A DNA stretch of 64,000 nucleotides, taken from contig OZ024740.1 of the NCBI GenBank assembly GCA_964016885.1, forward strand, positions 1,736,001 to 1,800,000, read 5' to 3'. The stretch is from Eledone cirrhosa. Lineage: Eukaryota. This document shows positions 9,101-62,932 of this stretch, piece after piece. Below the pieces are notes generated by a model. It saw only the letters and a list, made by a program, of their open reading frames with translations. It did not search any database and was not told the origin of the DNA. The first letter of the stretch is position 1, and every line of letters begins with the position of its first letter. The translations under genes were made by a program, and so were the position numbers.

Positions 9101-12100
9101 TCAGAATGTTGTAGGTTCAATTGCTAGACTGGGTTGTGTGTTGTGTTCTGTGGAGGTGTGTGGCCTAGTGGTAAGGGTGTTGGACTGACCATCAGAATGT
9201 TGTAGGTTCAATTGGTAGACTGGGTTGTGTGTTGTGTTCTGTGGAGGTGTGTGGCCTAGTGGTAAGGGTGTTGGACTGACCATCAGAATGTTGTAGGTTC
9301 AATTGCTGGACTGGGTTGTGTGTTGTGTTCTGTGGAGGTGTATGGCCTAGTGGTAAGGGTGTTGGACTGACCATCAGAATGTTGTAGGTTCAATTGCTAG
9401 ACTGGGTTGTGTGTTGTGTTCTGTGGACGTGTGTGGCCTAGTGGTAAGGGTGTTGGACTGACCATCAGAATGTTGTAGGCTCAATTGCTGGACTGGGTTG
9501 TGTGTTCTGTTCTGTGGAGGCGTGTGGCCTAGTGGTAAGGGTGTTGGACTGACCATCAGGATGTTGCAGGTTCAATTGCTAGCCTGGGTTGTGTGTTGTG
9601 TTCTGTGGAGGTGTGTGGCCTAGTGGTAAGGGTGTTGGACTGACCATCAGAATGTTGTAGGTTCTATTGCTAGACTGGGTTGTGTGTTGTGTTCTGTGGA
9701 GGTGTGTGGTCTAGTGGTAAGGGTGTTGGACTGACCATCAGGATGTTGTAGGCTCAATTGCTAGACTGGGTTGTGTGTTGTGTTCTGTGGAGGTGTGTGG
9801 CCTAGTGGTAAGGGTGTTGGACTGACCATCAGAATGTTGTAGGTTCTATTGCTAGACTGGGTTGTGTGTTGTGTTCTGTGGAGGTGTGTGGCCTAGTGGT
9901 AAGGGTGTTGGACTGACCATCAGAATGTTGTAGGTTCTATTGCTAGACTGGGTTGTGTGTTGTGTTCTGTGGAGGTGTGTGGCCTAGTGGTAAGGGTGTT
10001 GGACTGACCATCAGGATGTTGTAGGTTCTATTGCTAGACTGGGTTGTGTGTTGTGTTCTGTGGAGGTGTGTGGCCTAGTGGTAAGGGTGTTGGACTGACC
10101 ATCAGGATGTTGTAGGTTCAATTGCTAGACTGGGTTGTGTGTTGTGTTCTGTGGAGGTGTGTGGCCTAGTGGTAAGGGTGTTGGACTGACCATCAGAATG
10201 TTGTAGGTTCTATTGCTAGACTGGGTTGTGTGTTGTGTTCTGTGGAGGTGTGTGGCCTAGTGGTAAGGGTGTTGGAATGACCATCAGGATGTTGTAGGTT
10301 CAATTGCTAGACTGGGTTGTGTGTTGTGTTCTGTGGAAGTGTGTGGCCTAGTGGTAATAGTGTTGGACTGACCATCAGAATGTTGTAGGTTCAATTGCTG
10401 GACTGGGTTGTGTGTTGTGTGCTGTTGAGGTGTGTGGTCTAGTGGTAAGGGTGTTGGACTGACCATCAGGATGTTGTAGGTTCAATTGCTGGACTGGGTT
10501 GTGTGTTGTGTTCTGTGGAAGTGTGTGGCCTAGTGGTAAGGGTGTTGGACTGACCATCAGGATGTTGTAGGGTCAATTGCTGGACTGGGTTGTGTGTTGT
10601 GTTCTGTGGAGGTGTGTGGCCTAGTGGTAAGGGTGTTGGACTGACCATCAGGATGTTGTAGGTTCAATTGCTAGACTGGGTTGTGTGTTGTGTTCTGTGG
10701 AAGTGTGTGGCCTAGTGGTAAGGGTGTTGGACTGACCATCAGGATGTTGTAGGGTCAATTGATGGACTGGGTTCTGTGTTGTGTTCTGTGGAGGTGTGTG
10801 GCCGAGTGGTAAGGGTATTGGACTGACCATCAGGATGTTGTAGGTTCTATTGCTAGACTGGGTTGTGTTCTGTGGAGGTGTGTGGCCTAGTGGTAAGGGT
10901 GTTGGACTGACCATCAGGATGTTGTAGGTTCTATTGCTAGACTGGGTTGTGTGTTGTGTTCTGTGGAGGTGTGTGGTCTAGTGGTAAGGGTGTTGGACTG
11001 ACCATCAGGATGTTGTAGGTTCAATTGCTAGACTGGGTTGTGTGTTGTGTTCTGTGGAGGTGTGTGGCCTAGTGGTAAGGGTGTTGGACTGACCATCAGG
11101 ATGTTGTAGGTTCTATTGCTAGACTGGGTTGTGTGTTGTGTTCTGTTGAGGTGTGTGGCCTAGTGGTAAGGGTGTTGGACTGACCATCAGGATGTTGTAG
11201 GTTCAATTGCTAGACTGGGTTGTGTGTTGTGTTCTGTGGAAGTGTGTGGCCTAGTGGTAAGGGTGTTGGACTGACCATCAGGATGTTGTAGGGTCAATTG
11301 ATGGACTGGGTTCTGTGTTGTGTTCTGTGGAGGTGTGTGGCCGAGTGGTAAGGGTATTGGACTGACCATCAGGATGTTGTAGGTTCTATTGCTAGACTGG
11401 GTTGTGTGTTGTGTTCTGTGGAGGTGTGTGGCCTAGTGGTAAGGGTATTGGACTGACCATCAGGATGTTGTAGGTTCTATTGCTAGACTGGGTTGTGTGT
11501 TGTGTTCTGTGGAGGTGTGTGGCCTAGTGGTAAGGTGTTGGACTGATCATCAGAATGTTGTAGGTTCAATTGCTAGACTGGGTTGTGTGTTGTGTTCTGT
11601 GGAGGTGTGTGGCCTAGTGGTAAGGATGTTGGACTGACCATCATGATGTTGTAGGTTCTATTGCTAGACTGGGTTGTGTGTTGTGTTCTGTGGAGGTGTG
11701 TGGCCTAGTGGCAAGGGTGTTGGACTGACCATCAGGATGTTGTAGGTTCAATTGCTAGACTGGGTTGTGTTCTGTGGAGGTGTGTGGCCTAGTGGTAAGG
11801 GTGTTGGACTGACCATCAGGATGTTGTAGGTTCAATTGCTGGACTGGGTTGTGTTCTGTGGAGGTGTGTGGACTAGTGGTAAGGGTGTTGGACTGACCAT
11901 CAGGATGTTGTAGGTTCTATTGCTAGACTGGGTTGTGTGTTGTGTTCTGTTGAGGTGTGTGGCCTAGTGGTAAGGGTGTTGGACTGACCATCAGGATGTT
12001 GTAGGTTCTATTGCTAGACTGGGTTGTGTGTTGTGTTCTGTGGAGGTGTGTGGTCTAGTGGTAAGGGTGTTGGACTGACCATCAGGATGTTGTAGGTTCA

Positions 12101-13172
12101 ATTGCTAGACTGTGTTGCGTGTTGTGTTCTGTGGAGGTGTGTGGCCTAGTGGTAAGGGTGTTGGACTGACCATCAGGATGTTGTAGGTTCTATTGCTAGA
12201 CTTGGTTGTGTTCTGTGGAGGTGTGTGGCCTAGTGGTAAGGGTGTTGGACTGACCATCAGGATGTTGTAGGTTCAATTGCTAGACTGGGTTGTGTGTTGT
12301 GTTTTGTGGAGGTGTGTGGCCTAGTAGTAAGGGTGTTGGACTGACCATCAGGATGTTGTAGGTTCTATTGCTAGACTTGGTTGTGTTCTGTGGAGGTGTG
12401 TGGCCTAGTGGTAAGGGTGTTGGACTGACCATCAGGATGTTGTAGGTTCTATTGCTAGACTTGGTTGTGTTCTGTGGAGGTGTGTGGCCTAGTGGTAAGG
12501 GTGTTGGACTGACCATCAGGATGTTGTAGTTTCTATTGCTAGACTGGGTTGTGTGTTGTGTTTTGTGGAGGTGTGTGGCCTAGTGGTAAGGGTGTTGGAC
12601 TGACCATCAGGATGTTGTAGGTTCTATTGCTAGACTTGGTTGTGTGTTGTGTTCTGTGGAGGTGTGTGGCCTAGTGGTAAGGGTGTTGGACTGATCATCA
12701 GAATGTTGTAGGTTCAATTGCTGGACTGGGTTGTGTGTTGTGTTCTGTGGAGGTGTGTGGCCTAGTGGTAAGGGTGTTGGACTGACCATCAGGATGTTGT
12801 AGGTTCTATTGCTAGACTGGGTTGTGTGTTGTGTTCTGTGGAGGTGTGTGGCCTAGTGGTAAGGGTGTTGGACTGACCATCAGGATGTTGTAGGTTGTAT
12901 TGCTAGACTGGGTTGTGTGTTGTGTTTTGTGGAGGTATGTTGCCTAGTGGTAAGGGTGTTGGACTGAAGATTATAATGTTGTGTTCTTGAGCAAAATACT
13001 TCATTTCATGTTTCTCCAGTATACTCAGCTGAAAATGAGTACCAGTAATAGGCGGAGATTTAACCCTGCAATGGACTGACATCCTGTCCAGGGTAAGTCT
13101 TGTACTCTGTCACTTCATGCCACAGAAACCAAGATAAGTATCGGCCTGATGAGCCTCCAGGCTCAAGACAGA
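6150..13172 (+). mobile_element. tRNA-derived CORE-like SINE whose head has been amplified into a tandem array
   Basis: Head at ~6154; body resumes at ~12980 (GTTCTTGAGCAAAATACTTCATTTCA...CTCAGCTG...GAAACC...TGAGCCTCCAGGCTCAAGAC), colinear with the single-head copy at 33135-33385. Confidence 0.88.
6154..12968 (+). repeat. 91-bp tandem array (~75 copies) of a SINE tRNA-like head with A-box and near-B-box
   Basis: Unit GAGGTGTGTGGCCTAGTGGTAAGGGTGTTGGACTGACCATCAGGATGTTGTAGGTTCAATTGCTAGACTGGGTTGTGTGTTGTGTTCTGTG; A box TGGCCTAGTGG, B-box-like GGTTCAATTGC. Confidence 0.96.
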
Positions 13173-14058
13173 CTTTAGACTTTGATATAGAGTAATGTAG
13201 AAACTATGTAATATGACAACTGTAGCCTGACAATGTCCATCAACCCCATACCAGTAATTGGAGCAGGCCAGTTGTTGTTTGACTAACAGGGCTGGATTTT
13301 TGAAGAACATGTTTGAATTTAATTTATGGCTAGTATGGTTTAGTGAGTCGGGTTGATTGTAGGATTATGGATAGCATGGGTTTGGTTTAGATTTGTTACA
13401 ATATGGCCATAGTTATATAATTATGGATATACAATGACATTCATAAATGAGATATTAATCAAACTCCTAACGGGTTTCATAATTTTAATGGATTTCACAT
13501 TGGCTTTGTATAGCTGCACAAAGACAACTGTAGTTAAATATATATGTTGGTCCTCCATCACTTTCTACGATGAGTGTTCCAGTTGATTCAATCAATGCAA
13601 CAGTGAGAGGGGAAGGGAAAGTAAAAATGGGTTAGAGAGAGACTCAACATATGGGATGAAGGAGGAGCATACATCCTGAGCTGAGTGGTTGGCAAAGAAT
13701 GAGATGGAGAGGCAAATATATAAACACTACTGAAGTCTGTGTTTACACACAAACACATACAGTATATGTACTTACATGGCCACAAGTAATTATCTGCTGA
13801 GTGGCTGCACAAAGTATTTTCCAGTCTTTTTTTTCTTTGATCAATGGACTATACATATATGAAAATATGTCTGAGCATAAGCAATATTATAAATCATTTT
13901 TACCAAATGCAGCAGTAGTGAATTCATTCATTTTTCATATATTTATTTGTATATTTTTATATACCTAATGCCACCCACAATGGTAAATATATATTCCCCA
14001 AATTACTCATCACATCACATGTAATACTCTAGTACGTAGATATTCTAGATAACAAGAA

Positions 14059-31224: not shown

Positions 31225-32485
31225 AATAATTGTTTCTACTTTTGGCACAAGGCCAGCAATTACCCAGTGTATTACTGGTACTTTATTTTATCGACCCCGT
31301 AAGGATGAAAGGCAAAGTTAACCTTGGCGGGATTTGAACTCAGAATGGCAAGGGTCGTAACTCTGTGTCAAAGCATGTTGTCTGACCCTCTACCGATACT
31401 GCCAATCCACCACCCTAACATGTTGTCCGACCCTCTACCGATACTGCCAATCCACCACCCTAACATGTTGTCCGACCCTCTACCGATACTGCCAATCCAC
31501 CATCCTAACATGTTGTCCGACCCTCTACCGATACTGCCAATCCACCACCCTAACATGTTGTCTGACCCTCTACCGATACTGCCAATCCACCACCCTAACA
31601 TGTTGTCTGACCCTCTACCGATACTGCCAATCCACCACCCTAACATGTTGTCCGACCCTCTACCGATACTGCCAATCCACCACCCTAACATGTTGTCCGA
31701 CCCTCTACCGATACTGCCAATCCACCACCCTAACATGTTGTCTGACCCTCTACCGATACTGCCAATCCACCACCCTAACATGTTGTCTGACCCTCTACCG
31801 ATACTGCCAATCCACCATCCTAACATGTTGTCCGACCCTCTACCGATACTGCCAATCCACCACCCTAACATGTTGTCCGACCCTCTACCGATACTGCCAA
31901 TCCACCACCCTAACATGTTGTCTGACCCTCTACCGATACTGCCAATCCACCACCCTAACATGTTGTCCGACCCTCTACCGATACTGCCAATCCACCACCC
32001 TAACATGTCTGACCCTCTACCGATACTGCCAATCCACCACCCTAACATGTTGTCTGACCCTCTACCGATACTGCCAATCCACCACCCTAACATGTTGTCC
32101 GACCCTCTACCGATACTGCCAATCCACCACCCTAACATGTTGTCCGACCCTCTACCGATACTGCCAATCCACCACCCTAACATGTTGTCCGACCCTCTAC
32201 CGATACTGCCAATCCACCACCCTAACATGTTGTCTGACCCTCTACCGATACTGCCAATCCACCACCCTAACATGTTGTCCGACCCTCTACCGATACTGCC
32301 AATCCACCACCCTAACATGTTGTCCGACCCTCTACCGATACTGCCAATCCACCACCCTAACATGTTGTCCGACCCTCTACCGATACTGCCAATCCACCAC
32401 CCTAACATGTTGTCTGACCCTCTACCGATACTGCCAATCCACCACCCTAACATGTTGTCTGACCCTCTACCGATACTGCCATTCC
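31225..32485 (-). mobile_element. Meta-domain-like SINE with its 5' head amplified
   Basis: 31225-31372 is colinear with 33470-33620; the array unit equals the head of that copy. Confidence 0.88.
31374..32482. repeat. 45-bp tandem array (~24 copies) derived from a SINE 5' end
   Basis: Unit CATGTTGTCYGACCCTCTACCGATACTGCCAATCCACCACCCTAA versus single copy CATGGCGTCTGACTCTCTACCGATACTGCCAATCCACCGCCCTAA at 33619-33663. Confidence 0.95.
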
Positions 32486-33134
32486 ACATAATAATGGTTT
32501 CTAATTTAGGTACAAGACCAACAATTTTAGGGGAGAGGAAGTTGATTAAATTGACCCCGGTACATTACTGGTACTTTATTTTATCACCCTCACACCACCC
32601 ACCACCCATAATAATAATTTTGTACATTGACATGAACAAGGCCAGTAGTTTTTTGGCCTCGAAATTTACGAAAACAATATTTTAAAAGATTATCATTGAA
32701 AACAACAAAAACGGTTTCTGATTTAGGCACAAGACCAACAATTTGGTGGGAGGGGAAAATGTTCTTTATCCCTAGCTTGACCACCACCACCATCACCACT
32801 GCTAACATTACCACCACCAACCTCCCCATCACTACTAACATTGCCACCACCATCACCACCACTAACATTACCACCACCACCACCATCACCACTACCACTG
32901 CTAACATTACCACCACCATCAGTCAGTACATAATCACATTAGACATACTTAAGAGGATCAATTTATACAAAATATCAATGAAAATCCTGTAAAAATATAG
33001 ATTTCCTTACTACGAAATATGGAATATATTCAGTGATCGTTGATAAACTCCTACGTCTATAGACATTTGGTAGTTATTACGTCAGGCAATAATACCTTGA
33101 AGTATTAGTTTGGTCCATTTTCTGTTATAAAGTC

Positions 33135-35433: not shown

Positions 35434-35659
35434 CACTGAATCACTATTCACAAGCTTATACGCTGGTACATGGGGTGCTGAGACATGTAAGTAACAGAGG
35501 CAAAGCCGTCAATATTTACCTCTGGGTCATAGTTACCTCTGTAAAACAGTATTGGCATTTAATAAGTGACAAAGACAACTATATATGGTTGGGAGGGATT
35601 AGTATGAACTTGTACATATTCATGACACATCAGAACCACGTGGCCTCTCAAGATGTTTA

Positions 35660-38600
35660 GGGGACATGACTGGCTTAGTGGTAAGGGTGTTGGACTTATG
35701 ATCAAAAAGGATTTTATGATAAATAACTAGATAGCCAGATTTATGATGAAAGAGTAAGTCATATTACTAAATCACAAGTTCTTTTTTTAAAAGAAATTCA
35801 AATATGTCAATAAAAACACACATGCACATACATATGTAAAGAACATAATATTGTGGACTCGATTCCTGGGTTGTGTGTTGTGTTCTTAAGCAAAACACTT
35901 CATTTTATGATGCTCCAGTATATTCAATTGAAATTGGGTATCAGCAATAGCTGGGGGTTTATCCCTGCGATGGACTGTCCAGGGAGAGTCTTGTACTCTG
36001 TCTGGACAGTCCATTGCAGGGTTACTTGTTTTGTACTCTCTCTGGACAGTCCATCACAGGGTTACTTGTCTTGTAATCTCTCTGGACAGTCCATCACAGG
36101 GTTACTTGTCTTTTACTCTCTCTGGACTGTCCATCACAGGGTTACTTGTCTTGTACTCTCTCTGGACTGTCCATCACAGGGTTACTTGTCTTGTAATCTC
36201 TCTGGACAGTCCATCACAGGGTTACTTGTCTTGTACTCTCTCTGGACTGTCCATCACAGGGTTACTTGTCTTGTACTCTCTCTGGACAGTCCATCACAGG
36301 GTTACTTGTCTTGTAATCTCTCTGGACAGTCCATCACAGGGTTACTTGTCTTGTAATCTCTCTGGACAGTCCATCACAGGGTTACTTGTCTTGTACTCTC
36401 TCTGGACAGTCCATTGCAGGGTTACTTTCTTGTACTCTCTCTGGACAGTCCATTGCAGGGTTACTTGTTTTGTACTCTCTCTGGACAGTCCATCACAGGG
36501 TTACTTGTCTTGTACTCTCTCTGGACAGTCCATCACAGGGTTACTTGTTTTGTACTCTCTCTGGACAGTCCATCACAGGGTTACTTGTCTTGTACTCTCT
36601 CTGGACAGTCCATCACAGGGTTACTTGTCTTGTACTCTCTCTGGACAGTCCATCACAGGGTTACTTGTCTTGTACTCTCTCTGGACTGTCCATCACAGGG
36701 TTACTTGTCTTGTACTCTCTCTGGACAGTCCATCACAGGGTTACTTGTCTTGTACTCTCTCTGGACAGTCCATCACAGGGTTACTTGTCTTGTACTCGCT
36801 CTGGACAGTCTATTGCAGGGTTACTTTCTTGTACTCTCTCTGGACAGTCCGTCACAGGGTTATTTGTCTTGTACTCTCTCTGGACAGTCCATCACAGGGT
36901 TACTTGTCTTGTACTCTCTCTGGACAGTCCATTGCAGGGTTACTTTCTTGTACTCTCTCTGGACAGTCCATCACAGGGTTACTTGTCTTGTACTCTCTCT
37001 GGACAGTCCATTGCAGGGTTATTTGTCTTGTACTCTCTCTGGACAGTCCATTGCAGGGTTACTTGTCTTGTACTCTCTCTGGACAGTCCATTGCAGGGTT
37101 ACTTTCTTGTACTCTCTCTGGACAGTCCATCACAGGGTTACTTGTCTTGTACTCTCTCTGGACAGTCCATTGCAGGGTTATTTGTCTTGTACTCTCTCTG
37201 GACAGTCCATCACAGGGTTACTTGTCTTGTACTCTCTCTGGACAGTCCATTGCAGGGTTACTTTCTTGTACTCTCTCTGGACAGTCCATCACAGGGTTAC
37301 TTGTCTTGTACTCTCTCTGGACAGTCCATCACAGGGTTACTTGTCTTGTACTCTCTCTGGACAGTCCATCACAGGGTTATTTGTCTTGTACTCTCTCTGG
37401 ACAGTCCATTGCAGGGTTACTTGTCTTGTACTCTCTCTGGACAGTCCATCACAGGGTTACTTGTCTTGTACTCTCTCTGGACAGTCCATCACAGGGTTAC
37501 TTGTCTTGTACTCTCTCTGGACAGTCCATTGCAGGGTTACTTGTCTTGTACTCTCTCTGGACAGTCCATCACAGGGTTACTTGTCTTGTACTCTCTCTGG
37601 ACAGTCCATTGCAGGGTTACTTGTCTTGTACTCTCTCTGGACAGTCCATCACAGGGTTACTTGTCTTGTACTCTCTCTGGACAGTCCATCACAGGGTTAC
37701 TTGTCTTGTACTCTCTCTGGACAGTCCATTGCAGGGTTACTTGTCTTGTACTCTCTCTGGACAGTCCATTGCAGGGTTACTTGTCTTGTACTCTCTCTGG
37801 ACAGTCCATCACAGGGTTACTTGTCTTGTACTCTCTCTGGACAGTCCATCACAGGGTTACTTGTCTTGTACTCTCTCTGGACAGTCCATCACAGGGTTAC
37901 TTGTCTTGTACTCTCTCTGGACAGTCCATCACAGGGTTACTTGTCTTGTACTCTCTCTGGACAGTCCATCACAGGGTTACTTGTCTTGTACTCTCTCTGG
38001 TCAGTCCATCACAGGGTTACTTGTCTTGTACTCTCTCTGGACAGTCCATCACAGGGTTACTTGTCTTGTACTCTCTCTGGTCAGTCCATCACAGGGTTAC
38101 TTGTCTTGTACTCTCTCTGGACAGTCCATCACAGGGTTACTTGTCTTGTACTCTCTCTGGACAGTCCATCACAGGGTTACTTGTCTTGTACTCTCTCTGG
38201 ACAGTCCATCACAGGGTTACTTGTCTTGTACTCTCTCTGGACAGTCCATTGCAGGGTTACTTGTCTTGTACTCTCTCTGGACAGTCCATCACAGGGTTAC
38301 TTGTCTTGTACTCTCTCTGGACAGTCCATCACAGGGTTACTTGTCTTGTACTCTCTCTGGACAGTCCATCACAGGGTTACTTGTCTTGTACTCTCTCTGG
38401 TCAGTCCATCACAGGGTTACTTGTCTTGTACTCTCTCTGGACAGTCCATCACAGGGTTACTTGTCTTGTACTCTCTCTGGTCAGTCCATCACAGGGTTAC
38501 TTGTCTTGTACTCTCTCTGGACAGTCCATCACAGGGTTACTTGTCTTGTACTCTCTCTGGACAGTCCATCACAGGGTTACTTGTCTTGTACTCTCTCTGG

Positions 38601-39846
38601 ACAGTCCATCACAGGGTTACTTGTCTTGTACTCTCTCTGGACAGTCCATTGCAGGGTTACTTGTCTTGTACTCTCTCTGGACAGTCCATCACAGGGTTAC
38701 TTGTCTTGTACTCTCTCTGGACAGTCCATTGCAGGGTTACTTGTCTTGTACTCTCTCTGGACAGTCCATCACAGGGTTACTTGTCTTGTACTCTCTCTGG
38801 ACAGTCCATCACAGGGTTACTTGTCTTGTACTCTCTCTGGACAGTCCATCACAGGGTTACTTGTCTTGTACTCTCTCTGGACAGTCCATTGCAGGGTTAC
38901 TTGTCTTGTACTCTCTCTGGACAGTCCATTGCAGGGTTACTTGTCTTGTACTCTCTCTGGACAGTCCATCACAGGGTTACTTGTCTTGTACTCTCTCTGG
39001 ACAGTCCATCACAGGGTTACTTGTCTTGTACTCTCTCTGGACAGTCCATTGCAGGGTTACTTGTCTTGTACTCTCTCTGGACAGTCCATCACAGGGTTAC
39101 TTGTCTTGTACTCTCTCTGGACAGTCCATCACAGGGTTACTTGTCTTGTACTCTCTCTGGACAGTCCATCACAGGGTTACTTGTCTTGTACTCTCTCTGG
39201 ACAGTCCATCACAGGGTTACTTGTCTTGTACTCTCTCTGGTCAGTCCATCACAGGGTTACTTGTCTTGTACTCTCTCTGGACAGTCCATCACAGGGTTAC
39301 TTGTCTTGTACTCTCTCTGGTCAGTCCATCACAGGGTTACTTGTCTTGTACTCTCTCTGGACAGTCCATCACAGGGTTACTTGTCTTGTACTCTCTCTGG
39401 ACAGTCCATCACAGGGTTACTTGTCTTGTACTCTCTCTGGACAGTCCATCACAGGGTTACTTGTCTTGTACTCTCTCTGGTCAGTCCATCACAGGGTTAC
39501 TTGTCTTGTACTCTCTCTGGACAGTCCATCACAGGGTTACTTGTCTTGTACTCTCTCTGGTCAGTCCATCACAGGGTTACTTGTCTTGTACTCTCTCTGG
39601 ACAGTCCATCACGGGGTTACTTGTCTTGTACTCTCTCTGGACAGTCCATCACAGGGTTACTTGTCTTGTACTCTCTCTGGACAGTCCATCACAGGGTTAC
39701 TTGTCTTGTACTCTCTCTGGACAGTCCATCACAGGGTTACTTGTCTTGTACTCTCTCTGGACAGTCCATTGCAGGGTTACTTGTCTTGTACTCCCAGTCA
39801 CTTAATACCACAGAAACCGAGGTAAACACCGGCCTTATGAACCTCC
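35660..39846 (+). mobile_element. CORE-like SINE (tail A) interrupted by a 40-bp array
   Basis: Head 35665-35703, body 35850-36000, tail resumes at 39792 (CAGTCACTTAATACCACAGAAACCG...ATGAACCTCC), as in 13108-13160. Confidence 0.85.
35988..39793. repeat. 40-bp tandem array (~95 copies) with an inverted+direct SINE-derived unit
   Basis: Unit TCTGGACAGTCCATCACAGGGTTACTTGTCTTGTACTCTC. Confidence 0.97.
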
Positions 39847-40155
39847 AACAATTGTGTTTTCAAAACAGTGATTGGGAACCAACCATATTTTACTTATAGG
39901 AAAAAAGATCTCTGCATGATTGGTGGAGCAATTAGCAGTAAAAGATATAGGAAGGAAGAGAGTGGTGGGGTGGGGGGGGGGGAAACATACTGAAATTAAG
40001 GTAGGGAGTCAGACAGACAGACTAACTGATAACTTTGAATCACATGATGTGTTTCCTGCAATCTTCCCTTCTGAGAAATTACCACCTCAGCCCTCATCCT
40101 CCCCTAATTGCCACACCCACACACCAGTGTTGTTAACATGCTTCAACAGTGCACA

Positions 40156-43223: not shown

Positions 43224-46200
43224 AATAATAATAAAATCATTGTGTACAATGTTCAGGTGCACTACAACTCATCAAAGGTGCATGTATAGTACATAGAATA
43301 ATATACAAATGTCAGGGAAGTGAATAGTGTATGAGTCATGATATACATGTGTGCATGTGTATGGAGGGGGAATATTAGGTGTAATGTTGGTGAATCTTAG
43401 GAGGCATGGAGGTTTTAAAGGATGCAGTGTCTCGACAGCTAACAACTGATGCAGGTAGTTTGTTCCATGGGGGTTTTAAAGGATGCAGTGTCTCGACAGC
43501 TAACAACTGATGCAGGTAGTTTGTTCCATGGGGGTTTTAAAGGATGCAGTGTCTCGACAGCTAACAACTGATGCAGGTAGTTTGTTCCATGGGGGTTTTA
43601 AAGGATGCAGTGTCTCGACAGCTAACAACTGATGCAGGTAGTTTGTTCCATGGGGGTTTTAAAGGATGCAGTGTCTCGACAGCTAACAACTGATGCAGGT
43701 AGTTTGTTACATGGGGGTTTTAAAGGATGCAGTGTCTCGACAGCTAACAACTGATGCAGGTAGTTTGTTCCATGGAGGTTTTAAAGGATGCAGTGTCTCG
43801 ACAGCTAACAACTGATGCAGGTAGTTTGTTCCATGGGGGTTTTAAAGGATGCAGTGTCTCGACAGCTAACAACTGATGCAGGTAGTTTGTTACATGGGGG
43901 TTTTAAAGGATGCAGTGTCTCGACAGCTAACAACTGATGCAGGTAGTTTGTTCCATGGAGGTTTTAAAGGATGCAGTGTCTCGACAGCTAACAACTGATG
44001 CAGGTAGTTTGTTACATGGGGGTTTTAAAGGATGCAGTGTCTCGACAGCTAACAACTGATGCAGGTAGTTTGTTCCATGGGGGTTTTAAAGGATGCAGTG
44101 TCTCGACAGCTAACAACTGATGCAGGTAGTTTGTTCCATGGAGGTTTTAAAGGATGCAGTGTCTCGACAGCTAACAACTGATGCAGGTAGTTTGTTCCAT
44201 GGGGGTTTTAAAGGATGCAGTGTCTCGACAGCTAACAACTGATGCAGGTAGTTTGTTCGATGGAGGTTATAAAGGATGCAGTGTCTCGACAGCTAACAAC
44301 TGATGCAGGTAGTTTGTTCCATGGAGGTTTTAAAGGATGCAGTGTCTCGACAGCTAACAACTGATGTAGGTAGTTTGTTCCATGGGGGTTTTAAAGGATG
44401 CAGTGTCTCGACAGCTAACAACTGATGCAGGTAGTTTGTTCCATGGGGGTTTTAAAGGATGCAGTGTCTCGACAGCTAACAACTGATGTAGGTAGTTTGT
44501 TACATGGGGGTTTTAAAGGATGCAGTGTCTCGACAGCTAACAACTGATGCAGGTAGTTTGTTCCATGGGGGTTTTAAAGGATGCAGTGTCTCGACAGCTA
44601 ACAACTGATGCAGGTAGTTTGTTCCATGGGGGTTTTAAAGGATGCAGTGTCTCGACAGCTAACAACTGATGCAGGTAGTTTGTTCCATGGAGGTTTTAAA
44701 GGATGCAGTGTCTCGACAGCTAACAACTGATGCAGGTAGTTTGTTCCATGGAGGTTTTAAAGGATGCAGTGTCTCGACAGCTAACAACTGATGCAGGTAG
44801 TTTGTTCCATGGAGGTTTTAAAGGATGCAGTGTCTTGACAGCTAACAACTGATGCAGGTAGTTTGTTCCATGGAGGTTTTAAAGGATGCAGTGTCTCGAC
44901 AGCTAACAACTGATGCAGGTAGTTTGTTCCATGGGGGTTTTAAAGGATGCAGTGTCTCGACAGCTAACAACTGATGCAGGTAGTTTGTTCCATGGAGGTT
45001 TTAAAGGATGCAGTGTCTCGACAGCTAACAACGGATGCAGGTAGTTTGTTACATGGGGGTTTTAAAGGATGTAGTGTCTCGACAGCTAACAACTGATGCA
45101 GGTAGTTTGTTCCATGGAGGTTTTAAAGGATGCAGTGTCTCGACAGCTAACAACTGATGCAGGTAGTTTGTTCGATGGAGGTTTTAAAGGATGCAGTGTC
45201 TCGACAGCTAACAACTGGTGCAGGTAGTTTGTTCCATGGAGGTTTTAAAGGATGCAGTGTCTCGACAGCTAACAACTGATGCAGGTAGTTTGTTCGATGG
45301 AGGTTTTAAAGGATGCAGTGTCTCGACAGCTAACAACTAATGCAGGTAGTTTGTTACATGGGGGTTTTAAAGGATGCAGTGTCTCGACAGCTAACAACTG
45401 ATGCAGGTAGTTTGTTCGATGGAGGTTTTAAAGGATGCAGTGTCTCGACAGCTAACAACTGGTGCAGGTAGTTTGTTCCATGGAGGTTTTAAAGGATGCA
45501 GTGTCTCGACAGCTAACAACTGATGCAGGTAGTTTGTTCCATGGGGGTTTTAAAGGATGCAGTGTCTCGACAGCTAACAACTGATGCAGGTAGTTTGTTA
45601 CATGGGGGTTTTAAAGGATGCAGTGTCTCGACAGCTAACAACTGATGCAGGTAGTTTGTTCCATGGAGGTTTTAAAGGATGCAGTGTCTCGACAGCTAAC
45701 AACTGATGCAGGTAGTTTGTTCCATGGGGGTTTTAAAGGATGCAGTGTCTCGACAGCTAACAACTGATGCAGGTAGTTTGTTACATGGGGGTTTTAAAGG
45801 ATGCAGTGTCTCGACAGCTAACAACTGATGCAGGTAGTTTGTTCCATGGAGGTTTTAAAGGATGCAGTGTCTCGACAGCTAACAACTGATGCAGGTAGTT
45901 TGTTACATGGGGGTTTTAAAGGATGCAGTGTCTCGACAGCTAACAACTGATGCAGGTAGTTTGTTCCATGGGGGTTTTAAAGGATGCAGTGTCTCGACAG
46001 CTAACAACTGATGCAGGTAGTTTGTTCCATGGAGGTTTTAAAGGATGCAGTGTCTCGACAGCTAACAACTGATGCAGGTAGTTTGTTCGATGGAGGTTAT
46101 AAAGGATGCAGTGTCTCGACAGCTAACAACTGATGCAGGTAGTTTGTTCCATGGAGGTTTTAAAGGATGCAGTGTCTCGACAGCTAACAACTGATGTAGG

Positions 46201-47503
46201 TAGTTTGTTCCATGGGGGTTTTAAAGGATGCAGTGTCTCGACAGCTAACAACTGATGCAGGTAGTTTGTTCCATGGGGGTTTTAAAGGATGCAGTGTCTC
46301 GACAGCTAACAACTGATGTAGGTAGTTTGTTACATGGGGGTTTTAAAGGATGCAGTGTCTCGACAGCTAACAACTGATGCAGGTAGTTTGTTCCATGGGG
46401 GTTTTAAAGGATGCAGTGTCTCGACAGCTAACAACTGATGCAGGTAGTTTGTTCCATGGGGGTTTTAAAGGATGCAGTGTCTCGACAGCTAACAACTGAT
46501 GCAGGTAGTTTGTTCCATGGAGGTTTTAAAGGATGCAGTGTCTCGACAGCTAACAACTGATGCAGGTAGTTTGTTCCATGGAGGTTTTAAAGGATGCAGT
46601 GTCTCGACAGCTAACAACTGATGCAGGTAGTTTGTTCCATGGAGGTTTTAAAGGATGCAGTGTCTTGACAGCTAACAACTGATGCAGGTAGTTTGTTCCA
46701 TGGAGGTTTTAAAGGATGCAGTGTCTCGACAGCTAACAACTGATGCAGGTAGTTTGTTCCATGGGGGTTTTAAAGGATGCAGTGTCTCGACAGCTAACAA
46801 CTGATGCAGGTAGTTTGTTCCATGGAGGTTTTAAAGGATGCAGTGTCTCGACAGCTAACAACTGATGCAGGTAGTTTGTTACATGGGGGTTTTAAAGGAT
46901 GTAGTGTCTCGACAGCTAACAACTGATGCAGGTAGTTTGTTCCATGGAGGTTTTAAAGGATGCAGTGTCTCGACAGCTAACAACTGATGCAGGTAGTTTG
47001 TTCGATGGAGGTTTTAAAGGATGCAGTGTCTCGACAGCTAACAACTGGTGCAGGTAGTTTGTTCCATGGAGGTTTTAAAGGATGCAGTGTCTCGACAGCT
47101 AACAACTGATGCAGGTAGTTTGTTCGATGGAGGTTTTAAAGGATGCAGTGTCTCGACAGCTAACAACTAATGCAGGTAGTTTGTTTGATGGAGGTTTTAA
47201 AGGGTGCAGTGTCTCGACAGCTAACAACTGATACAGGCAGTTTGCTCCATGGAGGTTTTAAAGGATGCAGTGTCTCGACAGCTAACTGATGCAAGTAGTT
47301 TGTTCCATTGAGGTTTTAAAGGATGCAGTGTCTAGAAAGTTAACATGTTCCATGCTTCAGCAACTCTGAGCATGAAAAAATGTTTCCGAAAGTCATGAGA
47401 GCCGTGCTGTTTTTTTACTTTGTTGGCATGTCCACGTGTGATAGACACATGTGGACATGCCCACGTGTGTTAGACACATGGAAATCAAAAAGGTACTCAG
47501 GGT
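43224..47503 (-). mobile_element. CR1-like LINE 3' fragment containing a 61-bp array
   Basis: 43224-43405 and 47345-47503 are reverse complements of ~50605-50790 and ~50420-50550. Confidence 0.92.
43406..47343. repeat. 61-bp tandem array (~64 copies) derived from the CR1 ORF2 C-terminus
   Basis: Unit CATGGRGGTTTTAAAGGATGCAGTGTCTCGACAGCTAACAACTGATGCAGGTAGTTTGTTC is the reverse complement of ~50547-50607 (NKLPASVVS...). Confidence 0.97.
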
Positions 47504-48846: not shown

Positions 48847-49204
48847 TATAACACGTACAACACAGTTTTCCTTTTTTCTCTGTAAGTCAACCAATTAGTA
48901 AGACACCCCTCCCAATACATTAGATAAATTCCCCCACATCCCATCTCTGTCCCCATCCCTGCCCACTGGCCTTCCTAATTTCATTTCATTTAAAATCACT
49001 TTATCATATTTATGGTAGGAAATATCATTTTCATAATAGTCAAATTAGAGCAACGTTTTATGATGAATCTCTTACTTTTTTCACATTATTTTTTCCCATA
49101 AATGTATGTATATATGTGTAGACGTGCCTACACATGCAGCTACAGGAAAGGTATACACACACACACACATATAGATACGTGTGTGTGTGTATGTCTGTTT
49201 TTGT

Positions 49205-50790
49205 ACTCTTCTAGTGCTTCTATGTACTTCCTTTGGCACCAGCTTTCTTTCTTCTTTCAATACTGTCTCAACAATGGTGCTACTCCGGAGCAGTGGAAAA
49301 CTGCCAGTGTCATTCCCCTCTTCAAAAAGGGCGACCGCACGTCACCTGTCAACTATCGTCCAGTCTGTCTTACTAGCTGTATGGCCAAACTGATGGAATC
49401 CTGTGTCAGAGAAACACTTTGGAACTTCTGGAACTCTCACAGCCTCATCTGGCCCTCACAGTTTGGATTTATCCCTAACTCCAGCTGCTGTGATCAGCTT
49501 ATCGAGTTCCTTGAAGACATTACCCGGATCACTGACAGCGGCTCATGAGTGGATGTTGTTTACCTTGACTTCGCTAAGGCTTTTAATTCTGTGCCACACA
49601 AAAGACTTATGGCGAAACTCTCTGCAATGGGTGTGAGGGATGATCTTTTTAACTCGTTGAAATCCTTCATTCTCAGCCGAAAAGAGGTAGTCACGGTTCT
49701 AGGACAGCATTCTTCACTATATGAGATGTCATCTGGTGTACCACAGGGATCTGTTCTTGGTCCCCTTTTGTTTGTTGCATACATTGACATAGATGCCAAC
49801 TTAAAGAATGCCACGGTACTGAAATATGCAGATGACATCAAGCTGTACCTTGAAATCAAAAGGACTGATCCTGAAATCTATAACTCTTTCCTACAATCAG
49901 ACCTGGACACAATGCAGCAATGGATCACACACTGGCAACTGAAGCTGGCTGTGGAGAAGTGTACCACCATGCATTTTGGAAGGAAAAATCCAGCGTCCAC
50001 ATACTCCCTCCACAACATTGACATCAAGAAGTCCTCTTGTGAACGTGACCTGGGCATTACTGTCAGCAGCGATTTGCGTTGGACAAAGCATGTCTCTAAG
50101 ATTGTCAAGAAGGCCGAGGGTGTCTTGGCATCACACAGCAAGACCTTTGTTAGCCACTCTCCAGCCACATATTTAAAGCTGTATACAGCTATGGTACGAC
50201 CACACTTGGAATTCGCATCATCAGTCTGGAACCCCTATCTTGCTCAGAACATTGACCTCATGGAAACTGTTCAGAGACATGAAACCAAGCGCATACCCTC
50301 CATCAGACACCTACCATACTCTGAACGCCTTGCTTCCCTGGGCATCGATTCATTGAAGCTCCGACGTTTGGCAATGGACTTGGTAAACACCCACAAAGTT
50401 ATTAACCATCTCGCCAATTGCAACCCTGACCACCTTTTTGATCTCCATATGTCTAACACACATGGACATGCCTACAAAGTCAGAAAACAGCACAACTCCC
50501 ATGACTTTCGGAAATATTTTTTCACGCTCAGAGTTGCTGAAGCATGGAACAAACTGCCTGCATCAGTTGTTAGCTGCTGAGGCACTGCATCCTTTAAAAC
50601 CCTCATGCTTCCCAAAATTCGCCAAAACTACACCTGATGTATCCCTTCCATACACATGCACACGTGTATATCATGACTCATGCACTGTTCATTTTCCTGA
50701 CGTTTGAACATTACCCTATGTACTATACATACACTTTTGATGAGTTGTAGTGCACCTGAGCACTGTACACAATATTTTCATTATTATTAT
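49205..50790 (+). mobile_element. 5'-truncated CR1-clade LINE, reverse-transcriptase pseudogene
   Basis: PEQWK, NYRPVCLTS, QFGF, YLDFAKAF, SGVPQGSVLGPLLF, YADD, ERDLGI, VRPHLEF; in-frame TGA at 49546-49548 and 50578-50580; (ATT)n tail. Confidence 0.95.
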
Positions 50791-54843: not shown

Positions 54844-56795
54844 TCATCATCATCATCATCATCAACGTTTAACGTCCGTGTTCCACGCTTGCATGGGTTT
54901 GGACGGGGGTAGTCCCACTTGAGGCAAGAGTGATTGTCTTGCTCGCATAGGACTGTCTGGCAGGTTTTCTACAGTTGGATGCCCTTCCTAACACCAACCA
55001 CATTTACAGTGTGGGTCTGGGAGGTTTTTACCGTGTTGCCTACACGGCCACATTACAGCGTGGACTGTGTGTTTTTTGTCGTGACACCTACACGATCTCA
55101 TTTGTTTCGGCCTCGAAGGCGCGGCACCAACATAACTTTACATAGAACGGGGTGGTGTGGATCGGGTGGGGGTGGGGGTGGTGGGACGGGGTGTATTTTG
55201 TTAGAGATGCCTACTGGCTGGAGTAGGTTTTACTATATATTTAGGTAAGGCGGGTCTTCTCTGTTACTGAGTACCGCCAAAGGTCTCGGTCCAGTGACAT
55301 TGTCTTGGAGAGGTGTAAGTGTGTGATGTCGGAGTTTATCAGCTCGTCCCAGGTTTTTCTAGGTCTGCCTATTCCGTGACTACCGTCTATCTTTATTGCC
55401 CTGCACTTTGTTATACAGCTATCGACTTTCATGCGCATCACGTGTCCATACCAACGTAGCCTTCTCTCGAGTAAACAACATCTGATCCCTCTTATCTCTA
55501 ATTTTTTCCTTAGTTCGTTTATGCTTTGCCGTTCACGTATATTACTGTTACACATCCAGCGGAGCATGCAAGCTTCGTTCCTCTCTAGTCTGCGTATATC
55601 CTCTGCACACAATGCCCAGGTCTCACTGCCATGCAGCATTGCTGTTCGTATGCAGGCATCGTACAACCTGCCTTTCATTTTTAGTGAGAACCCTTTAGCA
55701 GCTAATAGTGGTATAAGCTCTCTGAACTTTTTCCAACCAGTTCTGACTCTAGCTACAGTACTTTCAGAGCACCCTCCCCCACTGCTGATTTTATCGCCCA
55801 GGTAACGGAAGCTGTCCACTATTTCTATAGAACCCTCTGCGCAATTGAAAGAGCTAGTATTTTGTGGGCACTTGCTGCTACTTATTGCACCAGAGCACCG
55901 GCCACATGTAAAATCTATGTTCTTAGTTAGCTTACCTGTGATCCCACTACATCTTTTATGCACCCATACTTTGCATTTAGGACATAAAATGGAGTTTCTA
56001 CCTACGCCTTTCCTACACACCGAGCACGACCATTTCCCAGAAGGGACCGCCGCCTTGTTTTCTTTCCTACAAACTAGCACTTTGGTCTTAGCCAGGTTAA
56101 TTTTAAGTCCTTTTGACTCTAGGCCGTGCTTCCATGTTTGGAATTTCTTCTCTAGCTCGGCCATTGATTCCGCTATGAGTGTCAGGTCGTCTGCGTATAG
56201 GAGTTCCCATGGGCAGCCTGTCTTGAACTCCTCTGTTATAGCCTGAAGGGCAATAATAAATAGTAGTGGACTGAGAACAGAGCCCTGATGGACGCCAACT
56301 TTTACGCTAAACTCTTCACTATATTCGTTGTTAATTCTAACCTTGCTGACTGTTTCTTTATACATGGCTTGTATAGCCCTCACAAGCCATTCGTCAACGC
56401 CTAGTTTTCTAAGAGCCCACCAGATAATGGAGCGGGGGACTCTGTCGAAGGCTTTCTCCAAGTCGACGAAAGCTAAGTAGAGGGGTTTACCTTTAGCTAG
56501 GTACTTCTCCTGTAGTTGTCGTACTATGAAAAGAGCGTCTGTGGTACTTTTGCCTGACACAAACCCGAACTGCATTTCATCTAGGTCAATTCTCTCTCTG
56601 ATTAGTTGCGCTATTACTCTTTCCGTGACCTTCATGACCTGGTCGATTAATTTAATGCCTCTATAGTTACTCCTATCTAGGGCGTCTCCTTTACCCTTAT
56701 AACAGTTAACGATGATGCTGCTATGCCAGTCCTTCGGAACAACCCCATTCTGTACGACTTGGTTAACTATGCGGGTGACCATGGTGTGTCCCACC

Positions 56796-56796
<1 letters not shown>
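54841..56796 (-). mobile_element. Young 5'-truncated RTE-clade LINE with an open RT frame (55241-56796)
   Basis: NYRGIKL, QFGF, FVDLEKAFDRV, VGVHQGSVLSPLLF, YADD, PHD-type Cys/His motif, RLRWYGHV, GRPRKTW; (GAT)n tail; (TA)n on both sides. Confidence 0.96.
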
Positions 56797-56880
<84 letters not shown>

Positions 56881-56881
<1 letters not shown>

Positions 56882-57228
56882 GGAGGCACATGGCTTAGTG
56901 GTTAGAGCATTGGCCTTGCAATCGAAAGGTTGTGAGTTCAATTCTCAGACCGAGTGATGTGTTGTTTCCTTGAGCAAGACACTTTATTTCACATTGCTCC
57001 AGTTTACTCAGCTGTAGAAATGAGATGATAGGGACTGGGGTCCCTATCATTCCACTGCAAAGTGGACGTGGAGGTGCCACGGCAAAAAAGCACCCAGCAC
57101 TCACTGTAAAATGAGGTTGGTGTTAGGAAGGGCATCCAGCTGTAGAAATCAAGCCAGAATCAGTTCCCGTCCCACCCTGGCAAGCAGGGAAAAAGCGGAC
57201 GTAAAATGAAAAAATGAAAAAAATGAAA
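56881..57228 (+). mobile_element. tRNA-derived CORE-like SINE with an RTE-derived 3' tail (tail B)
   Basis: A box TGGCTTAGTGG, B box GAGTTCAATTC, core CCTTGAGCAAGACACTT; 3' half matches RTE 3' UTRs at ~59905-60055 and 42740-42790. Confidence 0.9.
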
Positions 57229-60878: not shown

Positions 60879-62682
60879 CATCATCATCATCATCATCATC
60901 AGGTTTAGCGTCCGTGTTCCACGCTTGCATGGGTTTGGACGGGGGTTTTCCCACTTGAGGCAAGAGTGGTTGTCTTGCTCGCATAGGACTGTCTGGCGGG
61001 TTTTCTACAGTTGGATGCCCTTCCTAACACCAACCACATTTACAGTGTGGGGCTGGGAGGTTTTTACCGTGTTGCCTACACGGCCACATTACAGCGTGGA
61101 CTGTCTGGCGGGTTTTCTACAGCTGGATGCCCTTCCTAACACCAACCACATTTACAGTGTGGGGCTGGGAGGTTTTTACCGTGTTGCCTACACGGCCACA
61201 TTTACAGCGTGGACTGTGTGTTTTTTGTCGTGACACCTACACGATCTCATTTGTTTCGGCCTGGATGTTGTGGGGCCAACATAACTTTACATTGAAAGGG
61301 GCGGTGTGGGTGGGGTGGAGGTGGAGGTGGTGGGACGGGGGTGTGTTTTGATAGAGGTGCCTACTGACTGTAGTAGGTTTTTACTTTGTATTTAGGTAAG
61401 GCGGGTCTTCTCTATTACTGAGTACCGCCAAAGGTCTCGGTCCAGTGACATTGTCTTGGAGAGGTGTAAGCGTGTGAGGTCGGAAATTATCAGCTCGTCC
61501 CATGTTTTTCTGGGTCTGCCTACTCCGTGGCTACCGTCTATCTTTATTGCCCTGCACTTTGTTATACAGCTGTCGTCTTTCATGCGCATCACGTGACCGT
61601 ACCAACGTAGCCTTCTCTCGAGTAAACAACATCTGATCCCTCTTATTTCTAATTTTTTCCTTAGTTCGTTTATGCTTTGCCGTTCACGTATATTACTATT
61701 GCACATCCAGCGGAGCATGCAAGCTTCGTTCCTCTCTAGTCTGCGTATATCCTCTGCACACAATGCCCAGGTCTCACTGCCATGCAGCATTGCTGTTCGT
61801 ATGCAGGCATCGTATAACCTGCCTTTCATTTTTAGGGAGAACCCTCTAGCGGCTAATAGTGGTATAAGCTCTCTGAACTTTTTCCATCCAGTTCTGACTC
61901 TAGCTACTGTACTTTCAGAGCACCCTCCCCCACTGCTGATTTTGTCACCCAGATAACGGAAGCTATCCACTATTTCTATAGAACCCTCTGCGCAGTTGAA
62001 GGAGCTAGTATTTTGTGGGCACTTGCTGCTACTTATTGCACCAGAGCACCGGCCACATGTAAAATCTATGTTCTTAGTTAGCTTACCTGTGATCCCACTA
62101 CATCTTTTATGCACCCATACTTTGCATTTGGGACATAAAATGGAGTTTCTACCTACGCCTTTCCTACACACTGAGCATGGCCATTTCCCCGATGGGACCG
62201 CCGCCTTATTTTCTTTCCTACAAACTAGAACTTTAGTCTTAGCCAGGTTAATTTTAAGGCCTTTTGATTCTAGGCCGTGCTTCCACGTTTGGAATTTCTT
62301 CTCTAGTTCGGTCATTGATTCAGCTATGAGCGTTAGATCATCTGCGTATAGGAGTTCCCATGGGCAGCCGGTCTTGAACTCCTCTGTTATAGCCTGAAGG
62401 GCAATAATAAATAGTAGGGGGCTAAGTACAGAGCCCTGATGGACACCAACTTTTACGCTAAACTCTTCACTATATTCGTTGTTAATTCTAACCTTACTGA
62501 CTGTTTCTTTATACATGGCTTGTATAGCTCTCACAAGCCATTCGTCAACACCTAGTTTTCTAAGAGACCACCAGATAATGGAACGGGGGACTCTGTCGAA
62601 GGCTTTCTCCAAGTCGACAAAAGCTAAGTATAGGGGTTTACTTTTAGCTAGGTACTTCTCCTGTAGTTGTCGTACAATGAAA

Positions 62683-62684
<2 letters not shown>
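60879..62684 (-). mobile_element. Young 5'-truncated RTE LINE, close relative of 54841-56796 (open frame 61392-62684)
   Basis: Nearly identical protein including YADD and the PHD-type finger; 112-bp duplication in the 3' UTR; (TA)n flanks. Confidence 0.96.
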
Positions 62685-62734
<50 letters not shown>

Positions 62735-62932
62735 TTATTCAGGTTTGAGGTTCACCACTGTATAGAGCTGGTCTATTCCGTATGGTCAATCGTAATGCAA
62801 TAATATAGAGAGTACTCAACATAAGGCAGTTCAACCGTCTTTGTTTTTGTAGTTGGTGGTGCTATTACGGAGTTAAATATTATAATGAAATGACAGGAGG
62901 CTGGATTTATGTAAATCCTTGAAAGGTTTATT

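What the first reader, a model, noticed from the sequence alone, without database searches (positions are those of the whole stretch)
35955..39800. 40-bp satellite unit built from an inverted plus a direct piece at a hairpin: signature of repeated fold-back synthesis
Seen: the SINE reads TATCCCTGCGATGGACTGTCCAGGGAGAGTCTTGTACTCT just before the array. AGAGT-CTTGT-ACTCT is a small hairpin. The unit continues CTCTGGACAGTCCATYRCAGGGTTA, the reverse complement of the sequence just upstream of that hairpin, then jumps back to forward GTCTTGTACTC. After ~95 cycles the normal SINE tail resumes. Simple slippage cannot create the inversion. Inference: a 3' end snapped back, self-primed ~25 nt, switched back and regenerated the same priming end. 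This resembles polymerase-theta templated insertion or telomerase-like reiteration; later unequal exchange may have expanded it.
Basis: partly seen in the sequence, partly recalled or inferred. Interest (0 to 1): 0.72.

Follow-up and report, generated by a model that had tools for sequence, protein, structure and literature searches.

The report
Minisatellite born from one fold-back
A 40-base repeat sits 95 times inside one copy of a short jumping element (SINE) and carries a mirror-image copy of the DNA just beside it; it likely arose from a single DNA-copying fold-back and likely grew afterwards by ordinary repeat expansion, not by 95 separate fold-backs.

Summary
Observation confirmed. Window 35988-39793 holds 95 units of 40 bp plus an 11-nt partial unit inside one tRNA-type SINE copy. 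Each unit is a forward SINE piece plus the reverse complement of the 27 nt just upstream. The SINE consensus lacks this inversion, and the unit junction occurs only here (76 of 76 hits in 3.0 Gb). The inverted piece shares this copy's rare 8-nt deletion (8 versus 2,707 genomic matches), so it was templated locally.

'Repeated fold-back' is not supported. All 95 units share a change that the flank lacks, and none keeps the flank's CpG. Of 78 variant cells, 72 are shared between units, mostly near neighbours. No unit regenerates the priming arm. No other SINE copy shows a fold-back at this hairpin.

Best reading: one short-range template switch made an inverted insert between short direct repeats, and ordinary expansion then built the array. 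Half of the 1.66 Mb sampled is tandem repeat, and only this one of 133 complex arrays has such a unit. Both steps are known separately; I found no paper combining them. Earlier scan notes report SINE-derived arrays and SINE snap-backs elsewhere in this genome. Modest interest.

The parts
35660..35704 (+). 5' head of the SINE copy (tRNA-type head; the tRNA origin is recalled from its A-box-like sequence and was not tested)
   Evidence: 34 of 37 aligned bases match the consensus of 30 copies
35705..35843 (.). About 140-bp AT-rich interruption between SINE head and body
   Evidence: Absent from the consensus; other copies join 35702 to 35844 (table 5)
35844..35999 (+). SINE body up to the hairpin, about 10% diverged from the consensus, with a copy-specific 8-nt deletion near 35976/35977 and a G run one base short
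   Evidence: 143 matches and 16 mismatches to the consensus; deletion in 8 genomic matches versus 2,707 without
35960..35989 (+). Template of the inverted piece (switch points 3 to 2)
   Evidence: Reverse complement of the unit matches 35963-35989 at 25 of 27 positions; best shuffle score 11 against 21
35984..35999 (+). Small hairpin (stem 35984/5-35989 with 35995-35999, loop 35990-35994): inferred priming site of the fold-back
   Evidence: Sequence; DNA fold -2.7 kcal/mol; the same hairpin is in the SINE consensus and has 383 exact genomic matches followed by C
35988..39782 (+). 95 tandem units of 40 bp (five are 39 bp): 12-14 nt forward SINE piece + about 25 nt inverted piece + CTT
   Evidence: 15 unit types; only this locus in the genome
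39783..39793 (+). Incomplete terminal unit: second copy of the short direct repeat (switch point 4)
   Evidence: the SINE reads through when 35988-39782 is removed
39794..39845 (+). Resumed SINE 3' part; it lacks the last ~25 nt of the consensus tail
   Evidence: Alignment to the consensus, 49 matches and 12 mismatches over 39783-39844; loose ends of other copies at 39845

Best explanation
This is a single-locus minisatellite inside a SINE copy whose unit contains an inverted copy of its own flank; it likely began with one short-range template switch and likely reached 95 copies by ordinary unit-to-unit expansion. Step 1 (inferred): a nascent or broken 3' end just past the hairpin paired through the 5-6-bp stem and copied about 25 nt of this copy's own upstream sequence in reverse. 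A switch to the opposite strand at the same stem gives the same product. Step 2 (inferred): it rejoined the forward template 12-14 nt behind the point where it had left, with three extra bases, leaving a 40-nt insertion bounded by a short direct repeat and no deletion. Step 3 (inferred; strongly supported by the variant pattern): slippage, gene conversion or unequal exchange at that direct repeat duplicated the unit. Two copies lost the CpG in opposite directions, and their descendants expanded and were reshuffled into the present array. No function is implied. Shown: anatomy, local template, uniqueness, shared variants. Not shown: the enzyme, the timing and the intermediates.
For: (1) Local template: the inverted piece has the flank's 8-nt deletion (8 versus 2,707 genomic matches) and its 3-G spacing (1 of those 8). 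(2) Pure insertion with a direct repeat and an incomplete last unit. This is the product of a four-point switch with point 4 before point 1 (PMC7954356, S5 Fig legend) and the stated signature of minisatellite birth at noncontiguous repeats (PMC3389668 introduction). (3) One ancestral unit: 0 of 95 units have the flank's CCCTGG, 0 of 95 keep the CpG (73 CA, 22 TG), whereas 18 of 30 dispersed SINE copies keep it. All 95 units end the inverted piece at the same base. (4) Copying between units: 72 of 78 variant cells are shared and only 6 are singletons; 5 of the 6 shared non-CpG variants have clustering p<0.025 and the sixth p=0.048. (5) Background: 49.7% of 1.664 Mb sampled is tandem repeat; 9 of 133 complex arrays match this SINE and 8 of the 9 have plain direct units. 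(6) No second fold-back at this hairpin in the genome: 0 matches; 1 match of another kind; 22 matches, of which the 20 fetched are plain SINE minus strands.
Against: No allele or relative with 0, 1 or 2 units was seen, so the single-unit intermediate is reconstructed, not observed. Homogenisation has erased the earliest history, so a few early rounds cannot be excluded formally. The three junction bases (CTT) have no clean single-step template. The CA/TG variant itself is not significantly clustered (p=0.12), and the longest repeated block of unit types (10 units) is not significant (p=0.09). The flank-unit divergence rests on about 3 sites, so timing is weak. The pattern searches are exact or near-exact and would miss decayed fold-backs.
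Confidence: 0.78

Rival explanations
1. Reiterative fold-back: the 3' end snapped back, copied ~25 nt, returned and repeated this many times, as polymerase theta or a telomerase-like enzyme might; later exchange expanded the array.
For: The hairpin sits exactly at the inversion point. Alt-EJ in Drosophila is described as using multiple rounds of annealing and synthesis (PMC5728401, passages). The duplicated loop at the junction suggests more than one priming step in the founding event.
Against: The priming arm is absent from all 95 units. The only template is paired by unit 1 in a -28.6 kcal/mol hairpin. All units share a non-template base and identical end points. None keeps the CpG. Only 6 private changes occur in 3,800 cells. 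No other copy shows the product, although 383 exact hairpin matches exist.
Confidence: 0.05
2. The single fold-back happened during insertion of the SINE (second-strand synthesis after reverse transcription) rather than during later replication or repair; expansion followed as in the best explanation.
For: The 8-nt deletion predates or coincides with the event, and the unit keeps the consensus A where the flank now has T, so the event is old.
Against: First-strand synthesis from the SINE 3' end would need a minus-strand template for the upstream part that has not yet been made (inference from the geometry). The switch lies mid-body, not at an element end. Flank-unit divergence (1-2 changes per lineage in ~29 nt) is not larger than the copy's 10% divergence and cannot date the event.
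Confidence: 0.12
3. The inverted piece is a fragment of another SINE copy or transcript, inserted in reverse at a break with a short target duplication, then expanded.
For: The SINE is abundant (2,707 exact core matches); the 12-14-nt direct repeat resembles a target-site duplication in length.
Against: The donor would need the same 8-nt deletion (7 other matches against 2,707 undeleted) and the same G-run length (0 of those 7), and its edge would have to coincide with the hairpin stem by chance.
Confidence: 0.03
4. Sequencing or assembly artefact (fold-back chimeric long reads).
For: Fold-back chimeras are a known long-read artefact (recalled).
Against: Run X18 contigs hold the unit at about 70 times single-copy depth for one form and 92-131 times summed over bins, and one contig bridges units to the unique right flank with 1 substitution and a 3-nt gap relative to the window. 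Unit variants are structured.
Confidence: 0.02

Closest known systems
Short-range (four-point) template switch with switch point 4 before 1 (Loytynoja and Goldman 2017, PMC5453318; Walker et al. 2021, PMC7954356; keyword passages read)
   Same: Reverse-complement copy of a nearby 2-to-3 fragment; return behind the departure point; product with both inverted and direct repeats.
   Different: Those are single events inferred from ape alignments; 'tandem' has 0 occurrences in both main texts. Here the product became the unit of a 95-copy array, and no outgroup allele was available.
Snap-back SD-MMEJ in Drosophila (PMC5728401, passages) and fold-back templated inverted duplications of ~5-34 bp at yeast breaks (PMC11724301, abstract only)
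   Same: Short inverted primer repeats (P1/P2) at a hairpin, limited synthesis, an inverted insert of similar size.
   Different: No break or enzyme is shown here; there is no deletion at the junction; the return microhomology is not clean; those papers as read describe single junctions.
[quoted passage not shown]
   Same: Array bounded by a short direct repeat, with an incomplete terminal unit.
   Different: Here the direct repeat and the spacer were likely made together by the template switch instead of existing beforehand.
SINE-derived satellites (sSats) of squamates (PMC10702118, passages) and Alu/TE-derived minisatellites (PMC3389668, passages)
   Same: Tandem array of a SINE portion still embedded in its parent element.
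   Different: About two thirds of the unit is antisense SINE; the word 'inverted' has 0 occurrences in both main texts; single locus only.

Membership tests
Four-point template switch, 4 before 1 | Inserted fragment is the reverse complement of a nearby fragment of the same locus | tested here: met
   25 of 27 match to 35963-35989; shares the copy-specific deletion
Four-point template switch, 4 before 1 | Direct repeat of the 4-to-1 stretch, nothing lost | tested here: met
   11-14-nt repeat at both ends; SINE reads through when the array is removed
Four-point template switch, 4 before 1 | Three fragments explain the product perfectly | tested here: inconclusive
   Three junction bases and one shared substitution remain; they may be part of the event or later changes
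Four-point template switch, 4 before 1 | Ancestral state seen in an outgroup | tested here: inconclusive
   No orthologous contig across the site; the SINE consensus served as ancestor
Snap-back SD-MMEJ / polymerase-theta templated insertion | Inverted primer repeats P1/P2 next to the junction | tested here: met
   5-6-bp stem at 35984-35999
Snap-back SD-MMEJ / polymerase-theta templated insertion | New microhomology at the return junction | tested here: inconclusive
   At most 1-2 nt; the loop appears duplicated
Snap-back SD-MMEJ / polymerase-theta templated insertion | Dependence on a double-strand break and on polymerase theta | not testable with these tools
   Needs genetics
Telomerase-like or reiterative fold-back synthesis | Each round regenerates the priming site and copies the same template | tested here: not met
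   Left arm 0 times in the array; 0 of 95 units match the flank at the CCC and CpG sites
Telomerase-like or reiterative fold-back synthesis | Units independent of one another (private changes, no shared history) | tested here: not met
   72 of 78 variant cells shared; 6 singletons
Minisatellite born at noncontiguous direct repeats | Incomplete terminal unit equal to the starting repeat | tested here: met
   39783-39793
SINE-derived satellite (sSat-like) | Unit derived from part of a SINE, array inside the parent copy | tested here: met
MetaSINE superfamily | 66-bp Meta central domain | tested here: inconclusive
   The resemblance is recalled only. The domain sequence was not found as text: supplement file 1 of PMC4824008 could not be searched, and two other papers' supplements gave no match. 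The paper lists a cuttlefish member, SepiaSINE2.

The most novel reading that the evidence does not exclude
A fold-back repair or replication event can run reiteratively in the germ line and lay down several inverted-plus-direct units in one go, so that template switching is itself a birth route and first amplifier of minisatellites, with later homogenisation hiding the early rounds.
Probability: 0.06. Interest if true: 0.65.

Novelty: new variant of a known kind. Interest (0 to 1): 0.24.

Why it matters
It is an unusually readable record of how a minisatellite unit with no forward counterpart in the genome can arise. One template switch makes both the new sequence and the direct repeat that slippage needs, and the parent SINE supplies the ancestral state. 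That links two separate literatures, short-range template switching and minisatellite birth. It seems rare (1 of 133 complex arrays in a non-random sample, and that one was the starting point), it is confined to one locus, and no function is suggested. It is a good teaching example rather than a new system.

Tried and rejected
Searches for sister fold-backs at this hairpin found none. One search gave 0 matches with one mismatch allowed; the pattern fits 4-G copies and does not match this locus itself. One search gave 0. One search gave 1 match against 6 for the reversed control, and that match is an inverted end of a direct-unit array. One search gave 22 matches; the 20 fetched are ordinary SINE minus strands, and the other 2 look the same from the matched letters.

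Search for an unexpanded allele: run X1 (organism A) has an orthologous left flank and SINE head (35448-35704, 31 differences) and shows no depth on 39690-39721, but no contig crosses the site, so this shows nothing. X2, X3, X5 and the RAD run X21 gave no single-copy cover; 6 of the 23 listed runs were laid.

Survey near-misses inspected and set aside: C1:2021951 (GGT/ACC low-complexity match), C3:1576959 (AT-rich), and C25:2621763, C3:1462507 and C1:1487403 (scores 11-12, within the range of the reversed control).

A higher-order repeat test was not significant (p=0.09).

A longer fold-back that returned at the SINE's upstream GAGTAC inverted repeat, followed by an internal deletion, was considered by eye. 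It needs about 10 lost bases and several changes and is less parsimonious.

Meta-domain assignment could not be tested. Taylor and Breden 2000 was not held. A Pfam scan of 6 window ORFs found only retroelement domains.

Full report
OBSERVATION. The array is real and as described. TRF gives period 40, 95.3 copies, 35988-39793. It splits into 95 units (90 of 40 nt, 5 of 39 nt; 15 types) and an 11-nt partial unit. Each unit is a 12-14-nt forward piece (hairpin loop and right arm), about 25 nt that are the reverse complement of the sequence just upstream, and three further bases. The inverted match covers 35963-35989 at 25 of 27 positions (score 21; best of 20,000 shuffles 11). Contigs of one public run, X18, carry the commonest unit form at depth 468 against 6.7 for the unique flank, and one contig links the last units to the right flank. 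X18 may be the assembly's own sample, so this argues against an assembly artefact but is not an independent animal.

HOST ELEMENT. Thirty loci out of 99 exact matches to a 23-nt core pattern gave a majority consensus of about 280 nt. These copies were selected for an intact hairpin region, so the consensus is biased there. The window copy has a head at 35660-35704, an interruption of about 140 bp, a body 10% diverged from the consensus, the array, and a shortened tail. The consensus contains the hairpin but no inverted segment. Removing 35988-39782 restores an uninterrupted SINE (82 matches, 13 mismatches; gaps only at the 8-nt deletion, the G run and one 1-nt insertion). The genome is 3.0 Gb in 1,796 contigs. 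That it is an octopod comes from earlier scan notes and my recall of its repeats, not from a test. A MetaSINE assignment is recalled and could not be tested.

THE INVERTED PIECE WAS COPIED LOCALLY. The flank lacks 8 nt of the SINE core, and so does the unit's inverted piece. Exact patterns find 8 genomic matches with this deletion, this locus included, and 2,707 without it. Among the 8, only this copy has three G before AGAGT, the spacing seen in the unit. The unit junction occurs 76 times in the genome, always in this array. So the unit is neither a dispersed satellite nor part of a SINE subfamily, and its inverted part came from its own neighbour, beginning at the hairpin stem.

ONE FOLD-BACK, NOT MANY. 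(a) The priming arm AGAGT is absent from the array (0 occurrences). Each new round would have to reach back up to 3.8 kb to the single flank copy, which is predicted to be paired with unit 1 (-28.6 kcal/mol). (b) No unit has the flank's CCCTGG (0 of 95). All carry T there, in both main unit lineages, so both descend from one product. (c) The flank keeps a CpG; no unit does (73 CA, 22 TG), while 18 of 30 dispersed copies keep it. CA and TG are the two one-step decay products, which implies at least two early CpG-bearing units whose descendants took over. (d) Of 78 variant cells in 3,800, 72 belong to variants shared by 3 to 22 units and only 6 are singletons. The six shared non-CpG variants have clustering p-values of 0.001, 0.006, 0.007, 0.008, 0.024 and 0.048. 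The CpG variant is not clustered (0.12), and a higher-order-repeat test is not significant (0.09). The first 30 units hold 12 types and the last 65 hold 6, consistent with polar, more recent growth on the 3' side. (e) The flank differs from the units at about 3 of 29 sites, so the present array is younger than the founding event, although this estimate rests on very few sites. Homogenisation hides the earliest steps, so a few early rounds cannot be formally excluded.

THE HAIRPIN IS NOT A HOT SPOT. There are 383 exact matches of the hairpin with its context. Searches for fold-back products found 0, 0, 1 unrelated case, and 22 matches of which the 20 fetched are plain SINE minus strands. These patterns are strict and would miss decayed cases.

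BACKGROUND. I surveyed 1.664 Mb (the window plus 160 stretches of 10 kb). The regions were near contig ends and not random: C3 was chosen for locus L069, and C25 and C4 for hits. Tandem repeats cover 49.7%. Of 224 arrays (period 15 or more, 3 or more copies, 80% or more matches), 91 were dropped as low-complexity and 133 kept. Scores of 13 or more between the reverse-complemented unit and the 70-nt flanks occurred in 4 of 133, against 2 of 133 for the reversed control. The four are this array, an array whose last two units are inverted (C3:1469150-1474694), a GGT/ACC match and an AT-rich match. Nine of the 133 match this SINE, and the other eight have plain direct units. This genome builds long arrays from many sequences without any inversion, so the inversion explains the unit but not the array.

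MECHANISM. Inferred: a 3' end just past the hairpin paired through the 5-6-bp stem, copied about 25 nt backwards, then rejoined the forward template 12-14 nt behind its departure point with three extra bases. The switch order along the SINE is 3-2-4-1. That left a 40-nt insertion between short direct repeats. Slippage, conversion or unequal exchange then duplicated and expanded it. Whether this happened at a fork, at a break or during SINE insertion, and with which polymerase, cannot be told. Confidence 0.78; during insertion 0.12; reiterative fold-back 0.05; foreign fragment 0.03; artefact 0.02.

COMPARISON WITH WHAT IS KNOWN. The four-point model includes inverted-plus-direct products (PMC5453318, passages). 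PMC7954356 shows a case with point 4 before point 1 (S5 Fig legend). Snap-back SD-MMEJ uses inverted primer repeats (PMC5728401, passages). Yeast makes inverted duplications of about 5-34 bp by fold-back (PMC11724301, abstract and outline). Birth at noncontiguous repeats with an incomplete last unit, and Alu-derived minisatellites, are summarised in PMC3389668 (passages). SINE-derived satellites are described in PMC10702118 (passages). PMC4824008 and PMC5804259 (passages) were read for the SINE family. Two full-text searches (16 and 23 papers, seen as listings, one abstract opened) showed no report of a minisatellite whose unit is a template-switch product; the library lacks most subscription papers. 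It works like a template switch followed by VNTR expansion. It fails the tests for reiterative synthesis.

EARLIER NOTES. Unchecked scan notes describe this genome as rich in SINE-derived arrays, which my survey partly bears out. One describes snap-back SINE insertions and prompted the insertion-time rival. None of those listed describes a fold-back unit like this one.

VERDICT. Observation confirmed; interpretation partly supported. New variant of a known kind, single locus, no function suggested. Interest 0.24.

Noticed in passing
L069 / G000:C3:1469150-1474780: A 43-bp, 129-copy array from the same SINE core with direct units ends in an inverted copy of about two units: a fold-back at an array end, not inside the unit.
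   Followed up: partly
window 6160-13180: A 91-bp, 75-copy array made from the head of another copy of the same SINE, still attached to its body at 12968-13180.
   Followed up: partly
G000:C25:2630661, 2678244, 2706827; G000:C8:11120228-11120930; L065: Three 101-bp arrays with nearly the same SINE segment (consensus positions 136-243) lie within 80 kb on C25; a 136-bp-period array on C8 and a tandem in L065 also span the core.
   Followed up: no
window 35932-39899: The + strand of the array gives three long stop-free frames (1,162-1,297 aa) because most units lack a stop codon; likely incidental.
   Followed up: no
window 36108-36690 (units 4, 5, 7, 18): One shared variant changes the centre of the TGGAC/GTCCA quasi-palindrome to the flank's forward base, as a 1-nt spacer inversion would; a single substitution explains it equally well.
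   Followed up: no
window 49102-50577 (+), 55244-56944 (-), 61395-62738 (-): Reverse-transcriptase frames (PF00078); the two minus-strand ones also carry a PHD finger (PF00628) after the RT. Retrotransposon copies; class not determined.
   Followed up: partly
window 31374-32487, 43405-47345; G000:C1:1670611, C1:1981973, C25:2693881: Some other minisatellite units of this window recur at other loci (the 45-bp unit at C1:1670611 and, reversed, C1:1981973; the 61-bp unit at C25:2693881), unlike the focal unit.
   Followed up: no
window 35705-35843: An AT-rich stretch of about 140 bp separates the SINE head from its body; origin unknown.
   Followed up: no
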